From a virus, in IMG/VR virus record IMGVR_UViG_3300038722_000002, positions 19,540 to 83,539 of that record: a DNA stretch of 64,000 nt; one strand, 5' to 3'. The notes below the pieces were generated by a model that saw only the letters and a program-made list of their open reading frames with translations, was not told the DNA's origin and did not search any database. Both the position numbers and the translations under genes were made by a program. Numbering within the stretch: the stretch's first letter is position 1; each line of letters begins with the position of its first letter. This document shows positions 10,783 to 52,261 of the stretch, one piece after another.

Positions 10783-11361
10783 CTAAGGAGTTGTTACAAC
10801 TATATCAATGGGAATAGGATTAGGGTCATCCTCCCCTTCTTTCAATTCACCATCTATATCTACGGTATCAATGAAGCCATCTGACTCCACATCCACGTAA
10901 CGGTCATTTACATTAACCACTAAGCTGAATGAACTTGATTCTACCCATTTATCAGCCAACTTCTGAGGGAGGCTGATAACAGGGTTTGTATTAACTATTA
11001 AAACTTCTACTTCTGTTTCAATAGAATTTCTTACACGTTCTAATCTGAAATACGTTTCTAAGTCGTGTGCTATCTTTACAGCATCGTTGTATCCATACAC
11101 AGTATAATTAAGCAGAAGCTCATAATGTGTTTCGTACATCTTGTTGCCGTTTAGGTCTATTCCTTCATTGAACAACCAACCTGCTTCCTGACGTGTCTGT
11201 AATAAATCTAAGACCACGTAAGGGTAATCTGGTTTAGCAGGTTTCTGCCTTGCTCGTATGACCGAAGGATGTGTCCCATCGATGAGAGATAGTTGATCTC
11301 CTACCCCGTCTGCTGCCACACGAATAAACTTACCAAGGATTGCATCGTAATCTATTGCCAC
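10783..11361 (-). CDS. Tail terminator / neck protein
   Basis: KPDYPYVVL motif; last neck gene before the sheath region. Confidence 0.7.
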   Translation of the reverse strand: MAIDYDAILGKFIRVAADGVGDQLSLIDGTHPSVIRARQKPAKPDYPYVVLDLLQTRQEAGWLFNEGIDLNGNKMYETHYELLLNYTVYGYNDAVKIAHDLETYFRLERVRNSIETEVEVLIVNTNPVISLPQKLADKWVESSSFSLVVNVNDRYVDVESDGFIDTVDIDGELKEGEDDPNPIPIDIVVTTP

Positions 11362-12323: not shown

Positions 12324-12733
12324 TATTCATCTCCGCAGCAAGGGTTAATATCAGGAGGACAAGAAGTTGTAATCTTAATACCACCTTTAGCCTTCAATCC
12401 GTAATATCCAAAGATAGGACAAATATCACGTAATGAATCTATGTAGTCATCCCACCCTTGTTTAGCTGAACTACCATCGAAGTACGATACTTCAACTTCA
12501 TCGGTGCGTTGTTTTTGGATACCACCTGTTGCTGCGCCTACATTAGCAGCATTTACACCAGCAAGACTTCGTAATGATTTACAAAGCACTTCTGCGTAAT
12601 TAGAGTCATCGTCACCTACGTCAGCAATAATGTACTCATTAATATTTAACATCTGTGCGTCGGATAAACTATTACTTGGCGGGAGCCAGAGTTTATCGTC
12701 AGCTAATAGTTTATCTCTATCTATTGCTGCCAT
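12320..12733 (-). CDS. Head-tail adaptor / virion structural protein
   Basis: First gene after the capsid; QKQRTDEVEVSY beta-hairpin typical of adaptors. Confidence 0.65.
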   Translation of the reverse strand: MAAIDRDKLLADDKLWLPPSNSLSDAQMLNINEYIIADVGDDDSNYAEVLCKSLRSLAGVNAANVGAATGGIQKQRTDEVEVSYFDGSSAKQGWDDYIDSLRDICPIFGYYGLKAKGGIKITTSCPPDINPCCGDEY

Positions 12734-15863: not shown

Positions 15864-17468
15864 TTATAAGTTCTTCTTAATAAACATTGGAGCACCTGTT
15901 GTTGTATTAACCACTACAAGCTCATCTTCGGTTTCATAATCCACCTCGAATGACTCCATTGATTTATTCTCAGAGTTTGTACTTGAGGCTGCACCACCTG
16001 ACTGTGTATCACCTGTACCACTAGAGCCTTTGGATTCCCCAGCGCGTGACTGAATATTCATCTCTTTACGTTCAACTAGGTGTTCTTCTAAACCGTCTAA
16101 AGACCATCCAGCCGATGTGTACAGATCAGCTATTGCGGCATCCGTAAGCAATTCCACAGAACCACCACGTTGCAATACCTTAGATAATGTATCGTGGTCT
16201 GGTTTACTAGGGTCATCTGGAACAAATACTGGCATCTGATCGTAAGGGAGGTAAATATCATTGGCAGCTAAGAGACGAGGAATGAGTTGTGTGTTAATCA
16301 CATCAACTTTCCAGTCGATACAGCGTCTAATGAAGTAATCATGTGTGGTCATCTGACTACCAGCTAAGGCGTTAGACCCATGACCATTCTGTCCGAGCAG
16401 CAAGAACCCTGTACCAAAAACATTGTAAATAGATTTACGTTTCTGGTTAATAATATCCTCTGTACGATACTGTGTACCGCCACCTTGAATACCTTTTAGT
16501 TCCAAGTCGTATAAATACTTCTTACTATATTCATCTACATCTGAAGTTAGAACTATGTGAGTTGACTTACCTGCCTGCAATCGACTTGCATCTGACTGTA
16601 GAGCGGCATACTCTTTAGCTTCTTCAGGATAACGTGTTGGATCGTTAGCTCGTTCTATCAGCTCCGAAGGAACCCTAACAACAACTAAACCACCGAAATC
16701 TTTACTGACACCAACCACTTCATAATGCTCAACCAACTTCTTCTCTGTCAATGCGTCATAACACATGTTCAACGGAGAGTTACCTTGAGGGTTATTAAAT
16801 GTTGGGTTGTGCCTGAAATGCAACATCTGTTGTGTACTAATAAAAGGATACTTATTATTATCTAAATAAGATGAACCCGATATATCAGTCAGCGGTATGT
16901 TGCTGCTGAAATCTGAGTACCCTTTTTCTCTTGCTTGTACAAGATTAGGTTTCTGTACGAAGCCCTTCAGGTCACGATTATGTTTATCCCACACCCAACC
17001 GTATAATGATTTAGGATCACGTGGAGCCAGTTTCTTGAGAGTGTAAGCACCTTTATATTCACCGTACTTAGCTTTCTCTAAAACTATATTCTCTATGGCA
17101 AACCCATAAGTCAAATCAGTGGCAGCGTTATTCATCGCCTCCATCCAAGTGCCGTAGCCCATGTTCCTAATACAATAGTTTAAGAACTTAGCCATTTGCT
17201 TACTTAGATTGGAATCTTTAGCAACTACCTGTCCTCCGTTCAACGCTGCTACCACTTGAATATTGGTAGTATCAACACTGTTACCAACAGCATCGTCTAA
17301 CATCATATTCTCATACGTGCAGAAGCGTCGAGGGAGCTTTAAGTCATCCTTTTTTAAATCTTGGATGAACCTAGAAGAAGTTACGATACCTGATTGACCT
17401 TTCTCGTTTGTTAGAGGCCGTGTCACCGTCTTAGGTGTACTTTCAGCCTTATCTAAACTTTCGGTCAT
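15864..17468 (-). CDS. Portal protein
   Basis: 534 aa after terminase; YGFAIENIV, NPQGNSPL and GFLLLG...GSNAL motifs (DUF935-like portal). Confidence 0.9.
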   Translation of the reverse strand: MTESLDKAESTPKTVTRPLTNEKGQSGIVTSSRFIQDLKKDDLKLPRRFCTYENMMLDDAVGNSVDTTNIQVVAALNGGQVVAKDSNLSKQMAKFLNYCIRNMGYGTWMEAMNNAATDLTYGFAIENIVLEKAKYGEYKGAYTLKKLAPRDPKSLYGWVWDKHNRDLKGFVQKPNLVQAREKGYSDFSSNIPLTDISGSSYLDNNKYPFISTQQMLHFRHNPTFNNPQGNSPLNMCYDALTEKKLVEHYEVVGVSKDFGGLVVVRVPSELIERANDPTRYPEEAKEYAALQSDASRLQAGKSTHIVLTSDVDEYSKKYLYDLELKGIQGGGTQYRTEDIINQKRKSIYNVFGTGFLLLGQNGHGSNALAGSQMTTHDYFIRRCIDWKVDVINTQLIPRLLAANDIYLPYDQMPVFVPDDPSKPDHDTLSKVLQRGGSVELLTDAAIADLYTSAGWSLDGLEEHLVERKEMNIQSRAGESKGSSGTGDTQSGGAASSTNSENKSMESFEVDYETEDELVVVNTTTGAPMFIKKNL

Positions 17469-17800: not shown

Positions 17801-19423
17801 TTAGGACTCCTTGTATTTAGGTGTTTCTTGTAAGGTGGCTGTGTAACTGTCTATGACGTTAGCCGCTCTTGATTCGTTTTGTTGTTGATTTCTTGTTACT
17901 ATGTTTACTGTCCTACCTGAACACGCTGCGGCAAACGCCATACTCATAGCATCCACCCAATCATCTTTACGTGCGCTATTACTTTTCTTTTCAGGGTCAA
18001 AGGCTTCAAGTTCAGAATACAGGGCGTTCAGGGTAGGTTTATCAAACGTACTTTCAACTATGTGTACTAAACCTAATGAACACGCCTGACAGAAGGGTTG
18101 GAATGCAACCAACTTCTTATTAGGTGTATTATGTGCAGACTTATCTTCCTTAACCTTCAGTCCTTCCTCTTGGAAACGACCTAACGTATAGTAATGATCT
18201 GTCGCAGCACCACCTGTATCTTTTGTAAATACCCAAGTGGTGTCGTCGCCGTCATGGTGGGCTTGTCGGATAAGCATGGAGTCTCTAGCCCCTGCTAATT
18301 TCCGCATCCTCCCATGAACCCTTTCCTTAGCATCTAATTTAAGCTGCTGAACGTCTGTATAGTCGTCTAGGTAGTCACCTATTAACCAATACTCTCCATT
18401 CCTATCCTTAGCTATCTTAGGGGATGTGGCTGTGAAGTCTGGTTGGGCGTAAACCTCACTAGGTTCACTATACCCCTTATCCGTTCCTCTGTACCACTTG
18501 AGATCAGGAGGTATATCTGCCAAGGAGCTAACCTTCTCTCCTGCTTCTCCTCTTAACCAATGTCGTTGCCATAACGACTGACTACGTGGACGAGAGTACC
18601 AGTTACCCCACAATTGAGTATCACGTTCATGGTCTGGTAGGTTATTCAACTCCGATAGGTACACAGGGTTCGCTTTCAAACCTAATGGGTTATCGAATAT
18701 ATTAAAGAAGAAGTATGTGAACTTCTTCGGACGTATGTAAATCGTTTCATCCGAGTTAGGTATATCAACCCACAAACACTCAGGGTAGTTCTCTTGAAAC
18801 CACTCTTCCGATGGGCCGAAGATGAACTCACCTTCTTTTACTATGAACCACCTAATGTCCCCTCGTTTGTCGGGGTCTGGTGAACCATCCTCTTTCAAGT
18901 AGTATTCTACTAGAGGTAGGCACCAGCTATCAGGGTTAGGGTTGAGTGTCCCGACACAAAAGGAGTTCATATCTGCCTCTGAACGCAGACATGTCATCAA
19001 GAAGGTTACTTGGCTCTTAGAGAACTGATCGATTTCATCGAATCCTATAAGTGAGTAGCCTTTACCTCGGTGTGAACTCTTGTCGTCCTCGTAGAACATG
19101 TGACGATAGAATTGCTTTGCTCCCGAAGGCCACACCCAAGCCTTATCTGAAATCTTAGGTTGTGCGCCGAAGAGGGGATATTGGTTTTCACCTTTCTCCC
19201 ACAGGCCGTTAGCACCCATAATTTCATCGTATTGTCTTCGGAAGAATATCCCCCTGAAACTCTTATCCTCTGCAAAGCAGCAGGGGATCATACTAAGTAT
19301 TTCTGACTTGCCACCGAATCGTGCGCCACCCCATAACATGAAGTCCACATCACCGATCATACTGAAAGCTAACTCTTGATTACCTTCTTGGGGGCGTACA
19401 TCTTGCCACGTCTCATATCCCAT
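17801..19423 (-). CDS. terL: Terminase large subunit
   Basis: Walker A GGARFGGKS, Walker B IGFDEIDQF, coupling motif TLNP, nuclease-domain KDDWVDA. Confidence 0.95.
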   Translation of the reverse strand: MGYETWQDVRPQEGNQELAFSMIGDVDFMLWGGARFGGKSEILSMIPCCFAEDKSFRGIFFRRQYDEIMGANGLWEKGENQYPLFGAQPKISDKAWVWPSGAKQFYRHMFYEDDKSSHRGKGYSLIGFDEIDQFSKSQVTFLMTCLRSEADMNSFCVGTLNPNPDSWCLPLVEYYLKEDGSPDPDKRGDIRWFIVKEGEFIFGPSEEWFQENYPECLWVDIPNSDETIYIRPKKFTYFFFNIFDNPLGLKANPVYLSELNNLPDHERDTQLWGNWYSRPRSQSLWQRHWLRGEAGEKVSSLADIPPDLKWYRGTDKGYSEPSEVYAQPDFTATSPKIAKDRNGEYWLIGDYLDDYTDVQQLKLDAKERVHGRMRKLAGARDSMLIRQAHHDGDDTTWVFTKDTGGAATDHYYTLGRFQEEGLKVKEDKSAHNTPNKKLVAFQPFCQACSLGLVHIVESTFDKPTLNALYSELEAFDPEKKSNSARKDDWVDAMSMAFAAACSGRTVNIVTRNQQQNESRAANVIDSYTATLQETPKYKES

Positions 19424-19440
19424 GCTTTAAACCAACAGGA

Positions 19441-19800
19441 CAATAACCTCTCACAGTACTGTCTATCTCAAAATGTTAATAGATATAGGACACTGCTTAG
19501 GTGAGAGATAGGCCATACAATATGACAACTAAACAGTGTTACAGCAGAAGATGATGAACTCATCTCCACCACCATTCCAAGCTAAGGAGTGTGGATGATC
19601 AAGACCACGGTTACTTAGAACGCCTATAAGGAGGTTGTTACACATGATGTATAACGAATTTGTGTCAACGCTGCCACTTCGCCTGCACGTTGAAATCTCT
19701 GTCTCTCATCACTGTACACCACCTTGCTAGGAGAGGGAGCAGGGGGTGGTGTAGGGAGTAGTTTAGACAGCCTCGTCTCTGAACTGAGGGTGTTTAGTCC
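19441..19800 (+). ncRNA. Putative structured RNA between terS and terL (G-U pairs favour the + strand)
   Basis: Multiple helices, e.g. TACACCACC 19715-23 with GGTGGTGTA 19745-53, and AATAACCTC 19442-50 with GAGGTTGTT 19631-39; no ORF called. Confidence 0.45.
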
Positions 19801-19801
19801 T

Positions 19802-20389
19802 CTACTTCACGTCTGCCTTGGCTTTAGCCTTGGAAGCAGATTTGAAATCTAAGTTCTTATGTAATTGTTTATCTGTAAGAGGAGCTTTAGGCTTCATCTT
19901 CTTACCAGCAAAACTAGCTAGGCTCAACACGGGAGCTGATTGAGTATCACTGGTCTTCTTATTTTCCAACTCCTTCTCTTTCTGGTCTATCTTAGCCAGT
20001 GTGTTAGAGTTGAAGAATCTGACTACTTCGAGTTTTGAAGTCTCTTTAACTTCTTTACTGTTGAGGAACCAGACCAGTGTATCAAGCGCCTCTGCCGAGT
20101 GGCGTAGAATCTTCGCTTTATACGCATCAGGAGCCTCCACCTTGCCCTCTAGGATCTTTCTATGTGTCTCTAGTAGTTGTATAGCTATTTTACGCTTAGC
20201 TGACTCTGAGCCTTTCCTGAGCAACGTCACCATGACATCAGCAGCCTTTAGGCTATACTTGTCCGTCACAGCGTCCCAGTTGTTAATAGCCCTACTCTTG
20301 TTCTTTGAACCTTTCTTACGTCCCGCTGAGATACGGGGGTCTCCTTTTACAAAGCGTCCATTGTTAGGAGCTTTCTTCTTAGTCATCAT
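19802..20389 (-). CDS. Putative terminase small subunit
   Basis: N-terminal GRFVKGDPRISAGRKKGSKNK motif typical of TerS-like proteins; upstream of terL. Confidence 0.65.
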   Translation of the reverse strand: MMTKKKAPNNGRFVKGDPRISAGRKKGSKNKSRAINNWDAVTDKYSLKAADVMVTLLRKGSESAKRKIAIQLLETHRKILEGKVEAPDAYKAKILRHSAEALDTLVWFLNSKEVKETSKLEVVRFFNSNTLAKIDQKEKELENKKTSDTQSAPVLSLASFAGKKMKPKAPLTDKQLHKNLDFKSASKAKAKADVK

Positions 20390-20404
20390 TGCTCCTATTA
20401 GGAT

Positions 20405-20560
20405 CTACTCTTCTGAATCTAAGTTAATATCATCAGGAAATTCTTCTGCACCCAAGACAGCGATATGACATTCTTCACAAACTTCGTCGTCTATCTGGAC
20501 AACTTGCTTAAATGGTAATCTAATATCCAAGGAGCATTCACGACAATGTTTGTGTGACAT
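20405..20560 (-). CDS. Small CxxC...CxxC acidic protein (51 aa)
   Basis: Manual translation MSHKHCRECSLDIRLPFKQVVQIDDEVCEECHIAVLGAEEFPDDINLDSEE; SD GAGGT; first gene of the virion operon. Confidence 0.65.
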   Translation of the reverse strand: MSHKHCRECSLDIRLPFKQVVQIDDEVCEECHIAVLGAEEFPDDINLDSEE

Positions 20561-20665
20561 TATCACCTCTGTGAGTGTTAGTTGTTATTTAGGGGTTGAC
20601 ACGTCCGAAAGGACATGAGATACTTCTGTTTACTGGGGAGTTTATTTCCTCCCTCTATAATATGT

Positions 20666-20695
20666 ATTCTGCTACTAACTTTTGCCATTTGTCAA
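20666..20695 (-). promoter_or_regulatory. Promoter of the virion operon (TTGACA-N18-CAGAAT class)
   Basis: Minus strand reads CTTGACAAATGGCAAAAGTTAGTAGCAGAATA, a near copy of the promoter at 21034-21063. Confidence 0.65.
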
Positions 20696-20732
20696 GTAAT
20701 TTTTAACATTTTTTACAAAAAAAGGGAAATTA

Positions 20733-21044
20733 ATGAAAAATATGAAGAATTTACCTCCTATTCCACATGAATCTGAGGTCAAACAGGCGTTTTATGGACA
20801 CATCCAAGAGACTCTATCCAGTGGGTCGTTGAATATTCCTGATGTTGGACTGCAAGAAATCACATCATTTAGCGGAGGACACATCGGTTATAACAGCCCT
20901 ATTAGCATCCTAAAGAGTGAAAATACAGACCTTCTCCTCTATTCTGTCGGGGGTATCGGCACACTAGATGTCTATAATAACTACTCTGAAAGGCAAGAAA
21001 TGAATGTATTTGTCCGTAAAGCTAAGAAAGTGCTTGACAAATAG
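20733..21044 (+). CDS. Hypothetical protein
   Basis: 103-aa ORF between two divergent promoters; upstream TTGACA-N17-GATACT at about 20596-20624. Confidence 0.6.
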   Translation: MKNMKNLPPIPHESEVKQAFYGHIQETLSSGSLNIPDVGLQEITSFSGGHIGYNSPISILKSENTDLLLYSVGGIGTLDVYNNYSERQEMNVFVRKAKKVLDK

Positions 21045-21063
21045 ATTAAATTAGTAGCAGAAT
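21034..21063 (+). promoter_or_regulatory. Promoter (TTGACA-N18-CAGAAT class) upstream of structured RNA 1
   Basis: CTTGACAAATAGATTAAATTAGTAGCAGAATAG. Confidence 0.65.
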
Positions 21064-21069
21064 AGGAAT

Positions 21070-21630
21070 TAGAGTAATACAGAAGGTGTGGTTGTAAGAC
21101 TACACCTGTACAAAATACATCACAATATACATTCCACCTGAGTGTGTATTCTAATGTATTTATACATAGAGGCGTTTCGGCAAGGTTTCCCTCGCGTGGT
21201 AGCAAAAGCAAAACCCGACATATTGGTATATATGGAGCTGTAATGGATGACAGCGTTGAAGTGTAGTATCAAGAGTATACAATAACAAATCCTAGCTCTG
21301 ACGTCCTCTGTCAACTGGGTAGGTGGAAATGGAACAAGGCCCGATCACTAAACATACCGAATACCCTAAGATAGTCGTAGGTATGTTTACTCACTAGGGT
21401 TAAGTAGTGGGAGAATGCGTGTACCAAGGGGCAGGTCACGATAACGCAGAACCGATGACGTTATAGAGTAAACTCTTTATTTGGAATAAGTAATAATGAA
21501 AGTGACCAGTTAGGTCATATTACTTATATTGTACTTTACTAGGTACAATGGTTATATCTTTCAAGCAGTTATATATTATTAGAATATAATTGTTAGGATA
21601 GACCACCGAATAGAGAGGGCCTAGTTGCAT
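21070..21630 (+). ncRNA. Large structured non-coding RNA 1 (~550 nt, unclassified)
   Basis: More than 10 hairpins with G-U pairs and a GNRA loop; long-range helices 21168-75/21301-09 and 21312-18/21621-27; possible pseudoknot 21132-39/21321-28; has its own promoter. Confidence 0.7.
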
Positions 21631-21654
21631 CTGAAACTTGAGAATGGAGAGAAT

Positions 21655-22458
21655 ATGGGTGATTTACTACTGAAATTTAATGTACTAAAAGAGATAGAAG
21701 GGAGTGATGAAAACTCCTTCCAGCAGTTCGCTAATGATATGGCTTTGAAATACGGTATATTAGGAACTACTAATACAGTGATAGATTCGCTGTGGACTAA
21801 GAAGCGGCTGAACGTGAAAGACTACTTGCCTCCTAAGAAGAAGAAACGTAAGAAGCAGGAGAGACGTGGCTACCACTACAGTCCTAACGCAGACCTAGAG
21901 TGGTTATCCTTGAGACGTGATGTGATTAAGGTATTAGGAACTCGGTGTCTTTGCTGTAGAAAGAAACCAAAGAAGACTAAAGACCTACACGTTGACCACG
22001 TTCTACCAAGGAGTAGACATCCACACCTAACGTATGACATAATGAACCTTCAAGTGTTGTGTAAGACGTGTAACTACGATAAGTCAGATATACACGCAAC
22101 GGATTACAGGACAGACGAACAACGAGAGAGGTTATTGATTATGAAGGGTGTTAGAGGTAATTGTGTTGTGAGTGAGGATATGGTAGATGATGTGTATGAT
22201 GTACTAGGGGATATCCCCACTGAATACCTACAGGAGCTACACAGCTTACTTGAGAAGACGAAGAACAGTAAAGTAATGCTAGAGGTAGAGAATGATAAAC
22301 TATGCTCTGTAGTGTACCTGATAAGCTCTAAGGGCAGACATGTCGCCCACTGTAGTAAGAATAAGATAGTTGTCCGTGAGTATCGCAACTGGAGCAACGA
22401 CAACCGAGAGTTTAAGAATATAACCAAGGAGTTGTTGATTAAATGCAGGAAAGATTAG
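21655..22458 (+). CDS. HNH endonuclease with a Lys/Arg-rich segment and an extra C-terminal domain
   Basis: CLCC...LHVDHVLPRS...NLQVLCKTCNYDK HNH/Zn motif. Start moved from TTG 21625 to ATG 21655, which follows a GGAGAG SD. Confidence 0.85.
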   Translation: MGDLLLKFNVLKEIEGSDENSFQQFANDMALKYGILGTTNTVIDSLWTKKRLNVKDYLPPKKKKRKKQERRGYHYSPNADLEWLSLRRDVIKVLGTRCLCCRKKPKKTKDLHVDHVLPRSRHPHLTYDIMNLQVLCKTCNYDKSDIHATDYRTDEQRERLLIMKGVRGNCVVSEDMVDDVYDVLGDIPTEYLQELHSLLEKTKNSKVMLEVENDKLCSVVYLISSKGRHVAHCSKNKIVVREYRNWSNDNREFKNITKELLIKCRKD

Positions 22459-22661
22459 AAGAGTTTATAAATAAGTTAAAAGAAAGGTTGACGGCAGAAT
22501 GGGGAGACACTATAATCGTCACCAAGATACAGGCAAGAGGATATGGCCCTACAATGAATGTGATACAAATTAAGAATAAAGGACTTGCAGAAACATACGG
22601 AGTGTGGGAGACTAGAACAACTGGAGGGGGTAGCTTAGTGCAGTGGTGCTACTTCACATAA
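22443..22661 (+). CDS. Hypothetical protein
   Basis: 72-aa ORF overlapping the HNH stop; also contains a sigma70-like promoter, so its coding status is uncertain. Confidence 0.4.
   Translation: MQERLEEFINKLKERLTAEWGDTIIVTKIQARGYGPTMNVIQIKNKGLAETYGVWETRTTGGGSLVQWCYFT
22488..22516 (+). promoter_or_regulatory. Sigma70-type promoter upstream of the tRNA-like RNA cluster
   Basis: TTGACG-N17-TATAAT. Confidence 0.7.
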
Positions 22662-22668
22662 GATTAAC

Positions 22669-22708
22669 GGGTAGCTAGGAATTTGGAGGTTAAAATCCTC
22701 CCTGCCCT
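22669..22708 (+). ncRNA. tRNA top-half mimic (acceptor stem plus T arm only)
   Basis: GGGTAG/CTGCCC acceptor-like stem stacked on a GGAGG-TTAAAAT-CCTCC T arm; a 10-nt linker replaces the D and anticodon arms. Confidence 0.5.
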
Positions 22709-22911
22709 AACCTACGAGCTGTGTGACTACAGCTAGTACAGCCCTGTACGATGAGAAGTAAGTTGTGGTGACTTGCATGGGAGGCCGCGTAAGGTGGGCT
22801 GAAAACACCTCAGTCTTGTACAATGACTTAAAACTTAGGGGTGGAGCTTCGGTGTAGAAATCTTTGAGAGGTGTATCCAGTTGCTAGTCTGGTTAAAATT
22901 AGCACGAATTA

Positions 22912-23032
22912 CGGGGTGTAGCTTAAAAGGTAGAGCAGTTGGGCCAGCCGCCGCTAACTAGTATCGCGCAAAGGCGTTGACTAGTATCGGAAAGGGCGCT
23001 AATCAGTACGGTCTCGATAACCGTCACCCCGT
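22912..23032 (+). ncRNA. tRNA-like RNA with the anticodon loop replaced by a 56-nt extension
   Basis: Acceptor CGGGGTG/CACCCCG, TA at positions 8-9, D arm GCTT-AAAAGGTA-GAGC, stem GTTGG/CTAAT, T arm ACGGT-CTCGATA-ACCGT. Confidence 0.75.
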
Positions 23033-23051
23033 CTTAGTTAAGGAGAGATGT

Positions 23052-23327
23052 GTGTATTTTAAAAAGAAACCAGACAGGCGTGTAGGGGATCTGTATTGGG
23101 AACAGTTATCTATGTGGGATAGATCACCTACTGATGCAGTTGACATGTACAGCGAAGATGGGTTTCACTTCGAGCTTAGGTTAATTACAGAGGTGAGGAG
23201 TGCTACGGGTTGGAGTAATAGGTTTGTGATGTGGGATGAGTTAACATCTGAGCAGATAGAGGGGCTTGTACCTCAAGAAGGACACAACTGGTCACGGATA
23301 ATGGGGAACGTAGAGGACTTTAGTTAA
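23052..23327 (+). CDS. Hypothetical protein
   Basis: Track ORF 22977..23327; start moved to GTG 23052 (AAGGAG SD) because the upstream part lies in the tRNA-like RNA. Confidence 0.65.
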   Translation: MYFKKKPDRRVGDLYWEQLSMWDRSPTDAVDMYSEDGFHFELRLITEVRSATGWSNRFVMWDELTSEQIEGLVPQEGHNWSRIMGNVEDFS

Positions 23328-23552
23328 ATGACAAAACTGATAAAACCACACGAGGCGTGGAAAGAGGTTGTCCACACCGCTAGGGATAATATCGATAACC
23401 TTAACGACTTCAAGGAAGATACAGCAATCGTATGGGCTGACAAGGAGTTGCAGAACTATAAGAGGGCTATGATGGCCTTGGCTACAAGGAGTAACTCACA
23501 GGATGATCTATCCTTGATAGACACAATGGTAAGACGGGCGGAGGCACAATGA
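23328..23552 (+). CDS. Hypothetical protein
   Basis: ORF with GAGG SD, abutting its neighbours. Confidence 0.7.
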   Translation: MTKLIKPHEAWKEVVHTARDNIDNLNDFKEDTAIVWADKELQNYKRAMMALATRSNSQDDLSLIDTMVRRAEAQ

Positions 23553-23725
23553 GCGCACTAAGAACTAAAGAAGTAGTCCCCCTAGTAGAAGAAGCTCACA
23601 ACCGAGGACTATCACTATCAAGGTCTAATGACCTAGATACACATTCCTACTTACTAATTGGACTCTTTGAAATAATCTCTGAGATGAGGGATGAGATCGA
23701 TTTACTACAGGAGAAATCAAAATGA
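23549..23725 (+). CDS. Hypothetical protein (58 aa)
   Basis: Manual translation MSALRTKEVVPLVEEAHNRGL...; ATGA overlaps at both ends; GGAGG SD. Confidence 0.6.
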   Translation: MSALRTKEVVPLVEEAHNRGLSLSRSNDLDTHSYLLIGLFEIISEMRDEIDLLQEKSK

Positions 23726-23916
23726 CATATTTCACAATGAGCACATTCAGATCGAAGGAAGACCTGTACAAAGCCAAGGCAGAGTACCTAGAGAGCGCCC
23801 TCAAGCAGATCGTTGATGCACACCAGCTTGATGACTCCGTGTGGAAGGAGGATGATTTGTGGTGTACTGATCAATCGGAAGGGGAGTATCCCTTAGTGTG
23901 GGGTGAGTTGAAATGA
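23722..23916 (+). CDS. Hypothetical protein
   Basis: ORF with AGGAG SD. Confidence 0.65.
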   Translation: MTYFTMSTFRSKEDLYKAKAEYLESALKQIVDAHQLDDSVWKEDDLWCTDQSEGEYPLVWGELK

Positions 23917-24059
23917 GTAGTGACAATACACATAAGGTGCTTGCAAGAGAGACACCAACTATGTATAATGACCCCTTGGGTTGTTTAACTAAATGACGGC
24001 AAAGTAAAAAGTTTCCGAGGCTTCCCTCTTTGCCAGAAGACTACACATAAGGAGAACAA

Positions 24060-24215
24060 ATGATATCAGAAGTAACAATCTCAACTGAGAAACTAGAATA
24101 TTTATATCAACGAGATCAATTACTATCAGCACTAGAAGCAGCAGGTGTAGATAATTGGGAAGGATATGACTGTGTAATAGAATCACTACTACAACAATGG
24201 AGAGAAGAAGTTTGA
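24060..24215 (+). CDS. Small phage protein (ALEAAGVDNWEGY motif)
   Basis: Manual translation MISEVTISTEKLEYLYQRDQLLSALEAAGVDNWEGYDCVIESLLQQWREEV; TAAGGAG SD. Confidence 0.7.
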   Translation: MISEVTISTEKLEYLYQRDQLLSALEAAGVDNWEGYDCVIESLLQQWREEV

Positions 24216-24487
24216 TTGAAGAACAACAAGATATGTTTAAGAAAGAAGTAACAGTGTTCACAAGTGGTTGGTGTACTAACTGTAAGCCCGTCAAGCACTA
24301 TCTAAGCCTCTTAGAACAAGAAGGGGTGGTAAGTGTAGAGTATGCCGATGTAGACGCTCTAACGGCCTCTCAGCAGTCTCTAAAAGAACAACACAATATA
24401 CTGAGTATTCCAGTAGTCGTCTATGGAGATAAGACACTGATTGGAAGTAAGACTAAGCAAGAGATTATGACTTTTCTGGAGGTTTAA
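24197..24487 (+). CDS. Thioredoxin/glutaredoxin (NrdH-like)
   Basis: WCTNC redox motif and SIPVV cis-Pro loop; directly upstream of nrdA. Confidence 0.88.
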   Translation: MERRSLIEEQQDMFKKEVTVFTSGWCTNCKPVKHYLSLLEQEGVVSVEYADVDALTASQQSLKEQHNILSIPVVVYGDKTLIGSKTKQEIMTFLEV

Positions 24488-26280
24488 TGACTATAGAAGA
24501 ATATAACGGTATCACTATTGATTATTCAAGAGATGCCGACCTTCCCGAACAAGGCAAGGTGATGTTGACAAAGAAAGGGTTTTACAAGAAAGACTATGAG
24601 GACTCCCCACAACAGGGATTCGCCAGAGCAGCTAACTGTTTCAGCTTCGGGGATAAAGCATTTGCACAACGAATGTACGATTACATGAGTAAGTTGTGGT
24701 TTACCAACGCTAGTCCCGTACTATCTAACGCAATAGACTTCACATGGCCTGAGAATCTAAGCTTTGACGAGGCTGCTGAGTGGTTGGAAGGTAATATTAC
24801 ACCTGATGGACTACCTATCTCCTGCTTCCTTCCAGATATTCCTGACACTAAGGAGGGGCTTGTATCGACGGCAGCGGAGGTTAAGTGGTTATCTATGATG
24901 GGTGGTGGTGTAGGTGTGTATGCAGGAATGCGCTCACCTGACGAGAAGTCCACTGGTGTAATGGCACACATGAAAGAATATGATGCTATCGCCTTAGCCT
25001 ATAAGCAGACTGAATCACGGCGGGGGAGTATCGCAGCATATTTAGATATAGATCATCCTGAGATCATATCCTTCCTAGAGATGCGTAATCCTGTAGGAGG
25101 GGAGATTAATAAGAAATGCTTCAACCTTAACAATGGTGTCAATATTCCAGACTCCTTCATGGAAGCCGTAATAGCAGGAGATACTTACCCACTTATTGAT
25201 CCTAAACATGGGGACACAGGTCGTGAGTTAGATGCGCGTGAAGTATGGGAGAAGCTGCTGGAGCTGCGTAAGGAGACAGGTGAGCCGTATATCATGTGGA
25301 AGGATACAGTTAACCGTATGCTACCTGAGTGGATCACACGTCCTTTGTATAAGGTTAAGCAAAGTAATTTATGTAGTGAAATAACCTTAATGACATCTAA
25401 GAAGCGAACAGCGGTATGTTGCCTTAGTTCTCTGAATCTTGAGAAATATGAAGAGTGGAAAGACACAACTATCGTGGAAGACTTGATTCGTTACTTAGAT
25501 AATGTTTTAGAGTATTTTATCCGCTTGGCACCACCTGAACTACATAGGGCTGTGAACTCAGCTAAGAAAGAGAGAGCTATAGGACTAGGTACACTAGGGT
25601 TTCATGCTTATTTACAAAGCAAGATGATCTCGTATCAGTCGGGTGGATTGAACAGTGCATCGCATGAGAATCACAGGTTATTTAACCTTATCAAGACGCG
25701 AGCAATTGCAGGGTCTAGGCAGTTAGCCAAGGAACGCGGAGAGGCAAGGGACGTAGAGGGTTCAGGTATGCGTAATAGTCATCTATTAGCCGTAGCACCT
25801 AACGCAAGCTCTAGTAGTATTGCAGGGACAAGTCCGAGTATCGAGCTATGGTCAGCCAACGCATTTAATGCTCAAGGACGTGCGGGTAGTTTCCTGATCA
25901 AGAATAAGTATCTTGAAAAATACCTAGAAGGTGTAGGTAAGAACACCAAGGAGGTATGGAGTAGCATTATCGCCAATGAAGGAAGTGTGTACCACTTAGA
26001 TTTCATCCCAGATGATGTTAAAGAAGTGTTTGCTACGTCCAAAGAAGTTGATCCTATGTGGGTTATCGAACACGCAGGTATACGGGCACCATTAGTATGC
26101 CAAGCTGTTAGTAATAATTTAACGGTGCCTTCTAATATCACCAAACAACGGATGTCGGACATCCATATGAAGGCTTGGCGTAAAGGGGTTAAGACGTTAT
26201 ATTATTGCCGTAGTGAAGAAGCAATGAAGGCTTCCGTAGGTAGTAGTTATGAAAGTGAATGTTTAAGTTGTGAAGGGTAA
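24487..26280 (+). CDS. nrdA: Ribonucleotide reductase class Ia alpha subunit (no ATP cone)
   Basis: PISCF, SNLCSEI, AVAPNASSS and KTLYY motifs; C-terminal CLSCEG. Confidence 0.96.
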   Translation: MTIEEYNGITIDYSRDADLPEQGKVMLTKKGFYKKDYEDSPQQGFARAANCFSFGDKAFAQRMYDYMSKLWFTNASPVLSNAIDFTWPENLSFDEAAEWLEGNITPDGLPISCFLPDIPDTKEGLVSTAAEVKWLSMMGGGVGVYAGMRSPDEKSTGVMAHMKEYDAIALAYKQTESRRGSIAAYLDIDHPEIISFLEMRNPVGGEINKKCFNLNNGVNIPDSFMEAVIAGDTYPLIDPKHGDTGRELDAREVWEKLLELRKETGEPYIMWKDTVNRMLPEWITRPLYKVKQSNLCSEITLMTSKKRTAVCCLSSLNLEKYEEWKDTTIVEDLIRYLDNVLEYFIRLAPPELHRAVNSAKKERAIGLGTLGFHAYLQSKMISYQSGGLNSASHENHRLFNLIKTRAIAGSRQLAKERGEARDVEGSGMRNSHLLAVAPNASSSSIAGTSPSIELWSANAFNAQGRAGSFLIKNKYLEKYLEGVGKNTKEVWSSIIANEGSVYHLDFIPDDVKEVFATSKEVDPMWVIEHAGIRAPLVCQAVSNNLTVPSNITKQRMSDIHMKAWRKGVKTLYYCRSEEAMKASVGSSYESECLSCEG

Positions 26281-35218: not shown

Positions 35219-36585
35219 CTTAGCAGCCCCTACAAGCCGTTTTAAGGCACATTTCACACCACCCTATACAATCACACTAGCAAACCCCTAAACGCTCCCT
35301 ATGGACGTTCTAGGGCTGCTGTGAGGCATCCTAATATACTCTACTCTCATATATAGTACAGGAACACCTCCTCCACCTAAAGGGATAACCCCCTTATTCC
35401 CTCCCAAATATCCTCACACACAACCTCTTCCCCAATAATAGCAACACATTCCCTGTAAGGACACGCCGACACAAACCCCCTCAATATACCCCAAATATCC
35501 ACATATCTACCACTAAATTATATGTAGCACATTAATTCCCCACCAAAAATCTAATATTCCCTCCTAAAATATCCTTGACACCTACCATCACATATATGAA
35601 AATATCAAATAGCTGAGAGTAGTCTCAGGAGACAACCACACCCCCTGCCTCAAATAAAAATATCAACAACAACACAATGAGGGCATCCTCCGTTCGCCCG
35701 TTCAGGAATATCATGTTATCAATGATAGAGATAATAAGGACATGTCAGCGGCTAACCTCCCCAACATACTCCCCCAACTACCTCCTCCCCGCATATATGT
35801 GATTGTAAGATGGTAGGAGAATGGCGAAGCATTCTCATAGGTGGGACACAGGGGTAGGGTTGTACCCCTGTATACAGTATAAGGAGATAATACTCTAGGG
35901 GAGCGTATAGGCAGGCAGAATGCGGTGTGTAGACGTGTTGTGTGGTGATATTCCTAGTGCTCATTTCTAATAATAGATTCAATATTTAGCTGTTTAACAC
36001 CCTACCACACCTCCTATAGAAAGTCATTATAATTCTAAAATATCCTTAGAACCATTAGCTATATCCCCCGACAATATTCCCCCATATACCTTATATACCC
36101 CTTTTATGTTCCCCCTTATAACCTTTTGTTATACAGTTCGCATAACATAGATTATGTTAAATAGCCTATAACGATATTATTTGATGAACCATATGTTGGT
36201 ACATATAAACCATAATATGGTACATAGATATAACTAATAGTTATAACAACTTCAAGGCGCTACTACCATTGTATCATAAGAGGATATTTGAGGTAAAGTG
36301 GAGTTTTATACCTATTTGTTATATAAAATGAGGTGTTAAGTGGGAAATGGTATAAGAAAAAGGGCGATTATTGTTGACTTTGTGGGGTTTGTGGTGTTAA
36401 ACATATAGGGGGATATAATATTGTTAGGATATTATCAACATATTGGGTATAATATTATCAACATATAGTGTACATATTGGATAGAATATATATACATATC
36501 ACATAGAATATTGATAACATATACGCACTAGAATATATACCCCCAGCATATGCACCCCTGTATATTATCCCCATTACTATTATAT

Positions 36586-36714
36586 GCGTCTATATAGACG
36601 CCTACCCTCTATACACCTTTTAAGGTGTAACACAACTCACACCCCAGCACTCGCTCCCCCTAACATTGCTCCCCCTATATGGCAATACCACTATATAAGC
36701 GTCTATATAGACGC
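36586..36714. repeat. Twin perfect 16-bp palindromes GCGTCTATATAGACGC
   Basis: Copies at 36586-36601 and 36699-36714. Confidence 0.9.
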
Positions 36715-36946
36715 ATAGTAGGGCAGGCGGCAAGGTTAGCCGCTATCATACCTCTAAACGCCTATATCTACCTATCATACCTCTCTCACTAACACAACGC
36801 CCCTAGAACGTCCTCTATTGCGTTCTAAGGGCGTTGTAAGGTTGGGCTTTACGTTAGTATTAGATTGTCCCTAAACGCTCTGAATAGCTATAGGTTATAA
36901 GCGTGAGGGTTGTTAGAACTAAATGTTATATTAAATTGTAGGTGTT

Positions 36947-51602: not shown

Positions 51603-51632
51603 TTGACTTTTTATCAAAATTACTGGCAGAAT
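51603..51632 (+). promoter_or_regulatory. Promoter (TTGACT-N18-CAGAAT class) upstream of structured RNA 2
   Basis: CTTGACTTTTTATCAAAATTACTGGCAGAATAG. Confidence 0.6.
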
Positions 51633-51637
51633 AGAAG

Positions 51638-52195
51638 GTAGGATAGTGTGTTAAATATTACATCATCCTGAGAATTAGAAATAAATGAGAATATTCTGGT
51701 GTTTGTGGTGGTTGGAAACAATCATTAACGGGACGAGAGGAGTTCCAAGGTTGTCCTTCTGTATAGCTACAGTATAGGCATGTGGTAACAGTAATGTCCA
51801 CACTCTTCTCTCATACGTCTGACGTAGCGACACCTGCTTAGTCCGAACCTATCAAGACTGGGCGTAAAACGAGTTAAGCGTGACGTGTTCAATTAGGTAT
51901 GATTAGTTTATAGCTATTGCTTATTATACCACTTGAACTGTATGCAGGTCTTACACTGCTTTAAAAGTGTGAGCTATCACAGGGTCATTCCCTATATCAA
52001 TGCTCGATAATTAGAATATGTGGTTAGATATGTTTGATTAATATCTTAGATTAGCAATATCGGCTAATCTACCTCTTGTCAATAGGTTATATTATAACAC
52101 TCCAAAGTAGATTGGTTAATTAGAATAGTAATTCTATCACCCAAGGCTACTTTGTCTTGTCGTGCCTGTAAGAAAGGTAATGAATATAATAGTAA
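51638..52195 (+). ncRNA. Large structured non-coding RNA 2 (~550 nt, unclassified)
   Basis: Many hairpins with G-U pairs and GAAA/GTAA loops; helix 51735-43/51802-10; possible pseudoknot 51846-52/52082-88; no ORF called. Confidence 0.68.
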
Positions 52196-52261
52196 ATAAA
52201 ATGTTGACATGGAGATGTCAGACCATTATAGTGACATCAACTTAAACAAGAGGAGAGGAAT

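What the first reader, a model, noticed from the sequence alone, without database searches (positions are those of the whole stretch)
21070..22458. Structured RNA abutting an HNH nuclease with a basic arm: candidate RNA-associated or RNA-guided nuclease unit
Seen: the closing helix of RNA 1 ends at 21627, under 30 nt before the ATG (21655) of an HNH protein, with no evident terminator between them. The protein has a very basic stretch (PPKKKKRKKQERR) just before the HNH/Zn core and about 110 extra C-terminal residues. Established: HEARO/omegaRNA-IscB loci pair a large upstream RNA with an HNH-containing ORF. However, I see no PLMP or RuvC motifs here, so this is not IscB. Inference: either a new RNA plus HNH ribonucleoprotein, or a homing endonuclease that has parked behind a conserved RNA.
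Basis: inference. Interest (0 to 1): 0.75.

Follow-up and report, generated by a model that had tools for sequence, protein, structure and literature searches.

The report
Orphan phage HNH endonuclease, long leader
A marine phage carries an ordinary-looking, probably mobile HNH DNA-cutting gene behind a 590-base gene-free stretch that forms hairpins at both ends, and nothing found here indicates that the enzyme is guided by that RNA.

Summary
The stretch is real. Window 21045-21654 has no open frame under any code and overall folds better than shuffles on the + strand (z -5.66). It runs without a convincing terminator into an intact HNH gene, 21655-22458.

The excess folding comes from two hairpin clusters, 21064-21165 and 21463-21600. 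The central 297 nt fold like shuffled sequence (z +0.39).

The protein is a typical phage HNH:
- The "basic arm" is shared by its relatives.
- It has no RuvC, PLMP or HEARO match. The IscB model scores 30 bits against a cut-off of 175.
- None of 80 loci with HNH relatives has RNA1-like DNA, and their neighbours are heterogeneous.

RNA1, the full-length HNH and both flanking ORFs have no relatives in any collection searched, so covariation and co-occurrence could not be tested.

Strain contigs show the block 20319-22672 almost identical where the flank differs by 2%. That fits a recently spread cassette.

Best reading: a free-standing homing-type HNH gene with a long hairpin-rich leader. An RNA-guided unit is not supported.

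The scan had noted this same stretch once before in an overlapping window (e1-6115880), and not on other DNA.

The parts
21034..21063 (+). Promoter-like site TTGACA-N18-CAGAAT. It is one of three copies of TTGAC-N19-CAGAATA in the window, and it forms the right arm of a 57-nt inverted repeat around ORF p103.
   Evidence: 3 matches against 0.47 expected, and 1 of 100 shuffles reaches 3; arms 20655-20711 and 21018-21074, 74% complementary.
21064..21165 (+). 5' hairpin pair of the leader: a 10-bp hairpin at 21084-21107 and a long A/U-rich hairpin at 21113-21161.
   Evidence: -30.6 kcal/mol, z -4.04, 0 of 200 shuffles fold as well. The - strand gives z -2.25.
21166..21462 (+). Central ORF-free segment with coding-like G+C (0.42-0.44) and no folding beyond chance. 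Nature unknown.
   Evidence: z +0.39, 126 of 200 shuffles fold as well; stops in all frames; no tblastx similarity to any fetched locus.
21463..21600 (+). A/T-rich cluster of four hairpins upstream of the HNH ribosome-binding site.
   Evidence: z -3.45, 1 of 200 shuffles. The - strand gives z -2.95. G+C is 0.32-0.33.
21646..21657 (+). Shine-Dalgarno GGAGAG and the ATG of the HNH gene. It is not sequestered in a significant local structure.
   Evidence: sequence; local folds give z +0.67 and +0.14.
21655..22458 (+). HNH endonuclease ORF of 267 aa. It has an orphan N-terminal 58 aa, a basic linker at residues 59-71, a CxxC...CxxC HNH core at 98-144, a short post-HNH segment shared with a few relatives, and an orphan last ~80 aa.
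22443..22661 (+). ORFan p72. Its ATG overlaps the HNH 3' end by 16 nt. It is the last part of the block that is near-identical among strains.

Best explanation
The locus is a transcription unit of a marine tailed phage. A phage-type promoter at 21034-21063 would start a transcript with a ~590-nt untranslated leader. The leader carries stable hairpins at its 5' end and just upstream of the ribosome-binding site. The transcript then encodes a free-standing HNH endonuclease of the 'mob'-like, homing type and a small overlapping ORFan.

The HNH protein acts on DNA by itself. Its ββα-Me/zinc core would cut, and its lineage-specific N- and C-terminal regions would choose the site. It spreads with its flanks by double-strand-break repair between co-infecting phages.

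The leader is part of the cassette. At most it tunes stability or timing of the endonuclease mRNA. It is not a guide.

Shown here: the ORF-free stretch, the hairpin clusters, the HNH domain, the scattered contexts of HNH relatives, and the near-identity of the block among strains.

Inferred: promoter use, transcription, nuclease activity, homing, and any regulatory role of the leader.
For: HNH identity:
- Pfam HNH at 5.6e-9.
- 24 PHROG families match, nearly all annotated as HNH endonuclease.
- The best solved relative is a phage HNH, 5h0m.

Family behaviour:
- Relatives share the basic linker and the core but not the ends.
- 363 relatives were confirmed in IMG/VR. Of the best 80, the upstream ORF-free gap has median 0 and is at least 300 nt in 5 of 71 evaluable loci.
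- 120 downstream ORFs match 53 different Pfam families, none in more than 3 members. This is the scattered distribution of a selfish gene.

Patchiness:
- The HNH and both flanking ORFs are absent from all 8 loci of phages with related terminases.
- The full-length HNH, p103 and p72 have no relatives among 5.8 billion proteins.

Strain data (statistics):
- In run X2 the flank 19400-20318 has 19 differences in 919 nt, and 12 of the 13 inside ORF p195 are synonymous.
- 20319-22672 has at most 5 differences in 2272 covered nt (Poisson P = 8e-15).
- There are none in the 804-nt HNH ORF, even at synonymous sites.
- In X4 the DNA just after 22664 is replaced by 329 unrelated nt.
- A recently shared block next to an indel is what co-conversion around a homing endonuclease gives.

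Literature (PMC2988022, passages read):
- T4 'mob' genes are an HNH domain fused to a distinct C-terminal region and lie in intergenic regions.
- Endonuclease genes are often preceded by regulatory RNA hairpins, including one case with a very stable hairpin just upstream of a free RBS.
Against: - A 590-nt untranslated leader is far longer than the hairpins described for T4-type endonuclease genes.
- The RBS here is not sequestered, so the known regulatory mechanism does not apply.
- No contig lacking the HNH was seen, so presence/absence polymorphism, the hallmark of homing, is not shown.
- The flanking genes are ORFans, so 'inserted between conserved genes' cannot be verified.
- Low diversity of the block could equally come from any recent recombination.
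- An ORF-free 600 nt in a densely coding phage, with + strand folding asymmetry and a promoter twin in front of a second ORF-free 630 nt (RNA2, 51633-52261), hints at a function of the RNA itself.
Confidence: 0.6

Rival explanations
1. RNA1 is a discrete, functional large non-coding RNA of the phage. RNA2 at 51633-52261 may be a sister transcribed from the same private promoter type. The HNH gene merely sits downstream of RNA1 or was inserted beside it.
For: - The stretch is ORF-free in a dense genome.
- Overall z is -5.66 on +, against -3.55 on -.
- It ranks 5th of 398 composition-corrected folds, and RNA2(+) ranks about 8th with stronger strand asymmetry.
- The promoter motif is shared.
- Sub-threshold tRNA-like elements lie nearby, and related phages have tRNA clusters in the corresponding region.
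- From recall, known large phage RNAs (GOLLD, ROOL) often lie near tRNAs.
Against: - The central 297 nt fold like shuffles.
- No Rfam family matches at gathering score in the window, or at E<=10 in 20000-24000.
- There is no terminator before the HNH ATG.
- There is no sequence similarity between RNA1 and RNA2 beyond the promoter.
- No homologue was found in phage records, in 8 related phage loci, in 5 whole related records with a covariance model, or through 17-mer scans of IMG/VR.
- The strain invariance also covers synonymous sites of the HNH ORF, so it does not show selection on RNA structure.
Confidence: 0.2
2. The ORF-free stretch acts as DNA, as a packaging (pac/cos) or replication-origin region beside the terminase genes. 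The HNH is the accessory nuclease of the packaging machine, as in HK97-type phages.
For: - The stretch lies 0.7 kb from the small-terminase-like ORF p195 and 1.6 kb from TerL.
- It has A/T-rich hairpin clusters that also fold on the - strand (z -2.25 and -2.95).
- The best solved relative is a phage HNH.
- Many phages encode an HNH next to cos and terminase genes (PMC3592412, start of abstract seen in the listing).
Against: - The HNH is transcribed divergently from the terminase operon.
- TerL is the T4-like type with its own RNase H-like nuclease domain (Terminase_6N/6C). From recall, that is not the HK97 type that needs an HNH.
- Terminase-type families appear among only a handful of the 120 ORFs downstream of HNH relatives.
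- No iterons or direct repeats were found.
- The + strand folds better than the - strand through G-U pairs.
Confidence: 0.1
3. RNA1 and the HNH protein form a ribonucleoprotein in which the RNA scaffolds or guides the nuclease. This would be a new OMEGA-like system without RuvC.
For: - The RNA abuts the ORF in the same orientation with no terminator.
- A basic stretch precedes the HNH core.
- The HNH core resembles that of IscB at 30 bits.
Against: - None of the IscB-defining features is present.
- The basic stretch is common to relatives that lack any upstream RNA.
- No variable guide-like 5' segment was seen. In run X2, record 1 (19400-21281) has at most one unplaced difference, so 21065-21084 is unchanged or nearly so. 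In X4 this cannot be told, because 10 of its 12 differences in 20739-22664 were not printed.
- 21065-21084 has no second match in the window with up to 3 mismatches.
- The unit occurs once and has no family.
Confidence: 0.03

Closest known systems
Free-standing HNH homing endonucleases of T4-type phages (mobA-mobE)
   Same: - An HNH core fused to lineage-specific flanking regions.
- An intergenic position in a phage near nucleotide-metabolism and tRNA-type regions.
- RNA hairpins upstream.
- Scattered, patchy distribution of relatives.
- A near-identical block among strains, as expected from co-conversion (PMC2988022 passages).
   Different: - The leader is ~590 nt, and the RBS is not sequestered.
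- No HNH-less allele was seen.
- There is no sequence relation to a named mob gene. The full-length protein is an orphan.
IscB-ωRNA (OMEGA; HEARO RNA)
   Same: A non-coding stretch directly upstream of, and co-oriented with, an ORF that has an HNH domain.
   Different: - IscB has PLMP, split RuvC, bridge helix, WED and TI domains and about 400 residues, with a 200-400-nt ωRNA (PMC9640706 passages).
- Here the protein has 267 residues with HNH only.
- The IscB model scores 30 against a cut-off of 175.
- There is no HEARO match and no IS200/605 transposase.
- The leader is 590 nt and its centre is unstructured.
Packaging-associated phage HNH endonucleases (HK97 gp74 and GVE2 type)
   Same: - The best solved relative is a phage HNH, 5h0m (E 8e-4).
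- The gene lies within 2.3 kb of the terminase genes.
   Different: - Divergent orientation.
- About twice the size (267 aa against 130 for 5h0m).
- TerL is the T4-like type with its own nuclease domain.
- Relatives are mostly not beside terminases.
Large ornate phage-associated RNAs (GOLLD, ROOL)
   Same: About 600 nt, in a phage, near tRNA-like elements. The properties of these families are recalled, not taken from a call.
   Different: - No Rfam match at any threshold used.
- The centre is not structured beyond chance.
- There are no homologues, so no covariation.

Membership tests
IscB / OMEGA RNA-guided nuclease | Split RuvC domain with bridge helix | tested here: not met
   Pfam at E<=0.1 gives only HNH and HNH_5. 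The guided_IscB match covers model positions 164-246 of 314 only.
IscB / OMEGA RNA-guided nuclease | N-terminal PLMP domain, and whole-protein score over the NCBIfam cut-off | tested here: not met
   30.4 bits against a cut-off of 175. The same model rings below cut-off in 9 of 14 control genomes, so the match is generic HNH likeness.
IscB / OMEGA RNA-guided nuclease | ωRNA of the HEARO type upstream, with a variable 5' guide | tested here: not met
   RF02033 has no match at E<=10 in the contig. In run X2 no listed difference falls in the 5' 20 nt, though one of record 1's 22 differences was not printed. In X4 the positions of 10 of 12 differences in 20739-22664 were not printed, so X4 is not informative. 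There is no second match of the 5' 20 nt in the window.
IscB / OMEGA RNA-guided nuclease | IS200/605 context (Y1 transposase, element ends) | tested here: not met
   PF01797 has no match at E<=0.1 in the 83.5-kb contig. Element ends were not searched.
Free-standing HNH homing endonuclease | Intact HNH/ββα-Me core with zinc ligands | tested here: met
   Pfam HNH at 5.6e-9. The invariant columns C98, C101, H112, D114, H115, N131, C136, C139 and N140 are kept.
Free-standing HNH homing endonuclease | Sporadic distribution: present in some and absent from other related genomes, with relatives in unrelated contexts | tested here: met
   Absent from 8 of 8 loci of terminase relatives. Neighbours of 80 HNH relatives are heterogeneous.
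Free-standing HNH homing endonuclease | Presence/absence polymorphism at the same site between close strains | tested here: inconclusive
   Contigs of 4 runs were laid. None skips the HNH. The block is near-identical, and the DNA after 22664 is replaced in X4.
Free-standing HNH homing endonuclease | Site-specific cleavage of the HNH-less allele, and preferential inheritance | not testable with these tools
   Needs expression and co-infection experiments.
Packaging-associated HNH (HK97 type) | Gene adjacent to and co-oriented with terminase genes and cos, with a TerL that lacks a self-sufficient cutting mode | tested here: not met
   Orientation is divergent. TerL is Terminase_6N/6C.
Rfam large RNAs (GOLLD, ROOL, group I/II introns, RNase P, tmRNA) | Match to the family covariance model | tested here: not met
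   No family matches at gathering score in 64 kb. At E<=10 in 20000-24000 there are only a tRNA-like, a miRNA and a snoRNA chance match. ARAGORN finds no tRNA or tmRNA.

The most novel reading that the evidence does not exclude
RNA1, and perhaps RNA2, belongs to an unrecognised class of ~600-nt phage RNAs made from a private promoter. RNA1 stays bound to the HNH protein translated from its own 3' end and directs or gates its cutting. This would be an HNH-only RNA-dependent nuclease unrelated to IscB.
Probability: 0.04. Interest if true: 0.85.

Novelty: new member of a known kind. Interest (0 to 1): 0.25.

Why it matters
If the ordinary reading holds, this is one more selfish HNH endonuclease cassette in an uncultured marine phage. 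It is useful mainly as a cautionary case: an HNH gene behind a foldable gap is not an OMEGA-like system.

Two points keep some interest. First, a dense phage genome keeps two ORF-free stretches of about 600 nt behind the same unusual promoter. Second, the cassette is nearly invariant among strains that differ by 2% next door. Both can be tested once more genomes or transcriptomes of this lineage exist.

Tried and rejected
**Homologues of RNA1**
- blastn 'distant' of 20700-23000 against 50,697 phage records: no match.
- Own contig: self only.
- blastn and nhmmer against 8 terminase-related loci: only chance seeds, best E 0.28.
- A 29-mer and two 17-mers scanned in IMG/VR gave 0, 1 and 14 loci. 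All matched only over the 17-19-nt seed.
- tblastx against all fetched loci: nothing beyond those seeds.
- A single-sequence covariance model of 21166-21312 found only itself in 684 kb of loci and nothing in 5 whole related phage records. Such a model is weak, so this blank proves little.

**Closer relatives of the phage**
- The TerL search in metagenome contigs returned the same lineage set, at most 63% identity.

**Neighbours**
- p103 and p72 are ORFans.

**C-terminal domain of the HNH protein**
- Atlas by features: no usable hit. By structure: TM at most 0.44.
- An exhaustive HMMER search of residues 150-267 against 1.84 billion representatives gave itself plus one 1991-aa repeat protein. 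That protein matched through ten weak repeats of about 25 bits each, which I regard as uninformative.

**Other readings tested**
- Alternative genetic codes: rejected.
- Retron or reverse-transcriptase-linked element: no RVT_1 match.
- Group I or II intron carrying the HNH: no Rfam match, and the flanks are not a split gene.
- RBS-sequestering hairpin of the T4 type: not present.
- RNA1 and RNA2 as homologues: no similarity beyond the promoter.

**Expression**
- No RNA holder was listed for this stretch.
- Parts without contig cover (22880-23227) were not interpreted.

**Supplementary files**
- No supplementary files of papers were asked for, and none bears on a claim here.

Full report
**Context.** The window is positions 19540-83539 of an 83.5-kb IMG/VR virus contig that CheckV rates 54% complete. 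Runs that hold the stretch are marine and seawater metagenomes from three studies. A virion operon on the - strand includes:
- a Mu-type portal;
- a TerL of the T4-like Terminase_6N/6C type at 17801-19423;
- a small basic ORF, p195, at 19802-20389.

It meets a + strand block at about 20600-20730. On the + strand follow, in order:
- ORFan p103 (20733-21044);
- the ORF-free stretch 21045-21654 ("RNA1");
- the HNH ORF (21655-22458);
- ORFan p72 (22443-22661);
- an ORF-free stretch with a sub-threshold tRNA-like match (22637-22709, 22 bits against 29);
- small ORFs, thioredoxin and ribonucleotide reductase.

**The observation.**
- RNA1 cannot code. Every one of the six frames has 9-21 stops, and all three stop codons occur in each frame.
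- The + strand folds to -178.1 kcal/mol, z -5.66 against 20 shuffles. The - strand gives z -3.55.
- As a control I folded 199 windows of 610 nt on both strands across positions 1-61000 and regressed MFE on composition. RNA1(+) has the 5th most negative residual of 398 (z -2.6), and RNA1(-) is less extreme (z -1.76). The stretch is therefore in the top 1-2% of this genome, with an asymmetry that favours an RNA read from the + strand.
- Taken apart, the signal is local. 21064-21165 holds two hairpins (z -4.0). 21463-21600 holds four hairpins at G+C 0.32 (z -3.45).
- By contrast, 21166-21312 gives z -1.5, 21313-21462 gives z -0.2, and the whole centre 21166-21462 gives z +0.39. Both hairpin clusters also fold on the - strand (z -2.25 and -2.95).
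- A promoter-like TTGACA-N18-CAGAAT sits at 21034-21063. The motif TTGAC-N19-CAGAATA occurs three times in the window against 0.47 expected, and 1 of 100 shuffles reaches three. One copy faces the virion operon. One stands before a second ORF-free stretch, 51633-52261, which lies upstream of the helicase and primase genes.
- Between the promoter and the ATG at 21655 the only terminator-like site is weak.
- The ribosome-binding site is not buried in structure.

**The protein.**
- Pfam finds HNH (residues 98-144, 5.6e-9) and nothing else at E<=0.1.
- 24 PHROG families match, nearly all annotated as HNH endonuclease.
- The best solved relative is a 130-residue phage HNH, 5h0m.
- Among 5.8 billion proteins only the protein itself matches over its length. 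The other 23 hits cover 27-46% of it, which is the core.
- Aligned with nine of these hits, a lysine/arginine-rich run before the aromatic-x-S...W..LR...CxxC core is present in several (for example P0002, P0003, P0008 and P0010).
- A short segment after the core is shared with P0004-P0006.
- The last ~80 residues are unique.
- An exhaustive search with residues 150-267 found only the protein itself and one repeat protein through weak repeats.
- The Atlas gave no convincing fold.
- The structure predictor was closed.

**Test of the RNA-nuclease pairing.**
It cannot be run from the RNA side because RNA1 has no detectable relative.
- From the protein side, IMG/VR holds at least 363 relatives of the HNH core, and the best 80 loci were fetched.
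- In 71 loci where the ORF and its upstream side could be judged, the ORF-free gap upstream has median 0 nt. It reaches 300 nt in 5 and 500 nt in 2. ORFs of at least 50 aa in any frame were counted as coding. Five of the 80 loci were dropped because no ORF could be delimited, and four because they lay at a contig edge.
- The same rule gives 310 nt here.
- None of the 80 loci has similarity to RNA1.
- Of the five loci with gaps, one holds a known small RNA (Betaproteobacteria-1) and the others hold no Rfam family.
- The 120 ORFs downstream of these relatives match 53 Pfam families, none in more than three members.
- IscB-defining features fail. There is no RuvC or PLMP. guided_IscB scores 30.4 of 175 bits over the HNH part only, a level also reached in 9 of 14 control genomes. 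There is no HEARO match and no Y1 transposase. No reverse transcriptase is present either.
- The IscB features are taken from passages of PMC9640706.

**Strain evidence.** Contigs of four runs were laid on 19400-24600.
- In X2 the flank 19400-20318 carries 19 differences (2.1%). Thirteen of them lie in p195 and 12 of those are synonymous.
- From 20319 to 22672 there are at most 5 differences in 2272 covered nt (P = 8e-15). One lies in RNA1, at 21648 in the Shine-Dalgarno sequence. None lies in the HNH ORF.
- X4 shows 20 differences in 1189 nt of flank and 12 in 1926 nt of the block. Its contig then replaces 22664-23341 by 329 other nt.
- Because even synonymous sites of the HNH are invariant, the low diversity reflects recent shared ancestry of the whole block and not selection on RNA structure.
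- A recently spread block bounded by an indel is what co-conversion around a homing endonuclease gene produces (PMC2988022 passages). Any recent recombination would look the same, and no HNH-less contig was seen.
- Short contigs from two other studies (X5, X6) match 21393-21902 without differences. This shows only that the same phage occurs elsewhere.

**Relatives of the phage.**
- The nearest phages have TerL at 37-63% identity. There are 8 loci in IMG/VR, and the 7 in metagenomes are the same lineages.
- They lack homologues of p195, p103, the HNH, p72 and the following small ORFs.
- Upstream of TerL they carry tRNA clusters: 20 tRNAs in L009, 2 in L007 and 1 in L004.
- Two of them have group I introns in the portal gene.
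- The region is thus a variable island in this group.

**Verdict.**
- The best-supported reading is a free-standing, homing-type HNH endonuclease gene with an unusually long, hairpin-flanked leader (confidence about 0.6).
- A discrete new ncRNA with a parked endonuclease remains possible (0.2).
- A DNA-level packaging or origin element is less likely, because of the orientation and the terminase type (0.1).
- An RNA-guided or RNA-dependent HNH is not excluded but has nothing in its favour beyond adjacency (0.03-0.04).
- The properties of GOLLD and ROOL, the HK97 gp74 work and the GVE2 HNH-terminase interaction are recalled and come from no call.
- Of PMC3592412 and PMC12967558 I saw only the search listing with the start of the abstract.

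Noticed in passing
window 51633-52261 (+): A second ORF-free stretch of about 630 nt lies behind the same TTGAC-N19-CAGAATA motif (51603-51633), just upstream of an ORFan, a PIF1-like helicase and a primase-helicase. It folds at z -3.36 on the + strand, with strong strand asymmetry in the composition-corrected scan (-2.19 against -0.8). It has no sequence similarity to RNA1 beyond the promoter.
   Followed up: partly
window 20655-20711 / 21018-21074: A 57-nt inverted repeat (74% complementary) brackets ORFan p103. Each arm carries one copy of the promoter-like motif, one facing the virion operon and one facing RNA1.
   Followed up: partly
window 22488-22516 and 22626-23032 (+): A near-consensus sigma-70-like promoter (TTGACG-17-TATAAT, 11 of 12) lies inside ORFan p72. 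Behind it is an ORF-free stretch with a sub-threshold tRNA-like match (22637-22709, 22.2 bits against 29) and a repeated 12-mer at 22626 and 22914. ARAGORN calls no tRNA in the window.
   Followed up: partly
window 22664-23341, 23547-23721, 23862-23983: Strain variants in other samples replace 676 nt by 329 other nt, delete 173 nt, and replace 120 nt by 510 nt. The small-ORF region after the HNH block is therefore a hotspot of indels (table 5).
   Followed up: no
L002:10329-10618 and 10877-11202; L006:2751-3081: Related phages carry group I introns (Rfam Intron_gpI, 69-93 bits) inside their portal genes. This explains the portal matching in three or two pieces there. The window's portal (15864-17468) is uninterrupted.
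   Followed up: no
L009:635-5898; L007:3204-3351: Related phages have tRNA clusters upstream of TerL, 20 tRNAs in L009. The window has none at the corresponding side.
   Followed up: no
window 35219-36941: A long ORF-poor region holds the strongest composition-corrected folding in the window, on both strands alike (window starting at 36296: z -3.2 and -3.1). This suggests DNA-level inverted repeats. The window starting at 12506 behaves similarly.
   Followed up: no
Pfam at E<=0.01 finds only NAPRTase (residues 362-705) in the 724-aa ORF. A PF01844 search of the whole contig rings only at the HNH of this report. The N-terminal 360 residues remain unassigned.
   Followed up: partly
window 19424-19801: A 378-nt ORF-free gap lies between TerL and the small-terminase-like ORF p195.
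   Followed up: no
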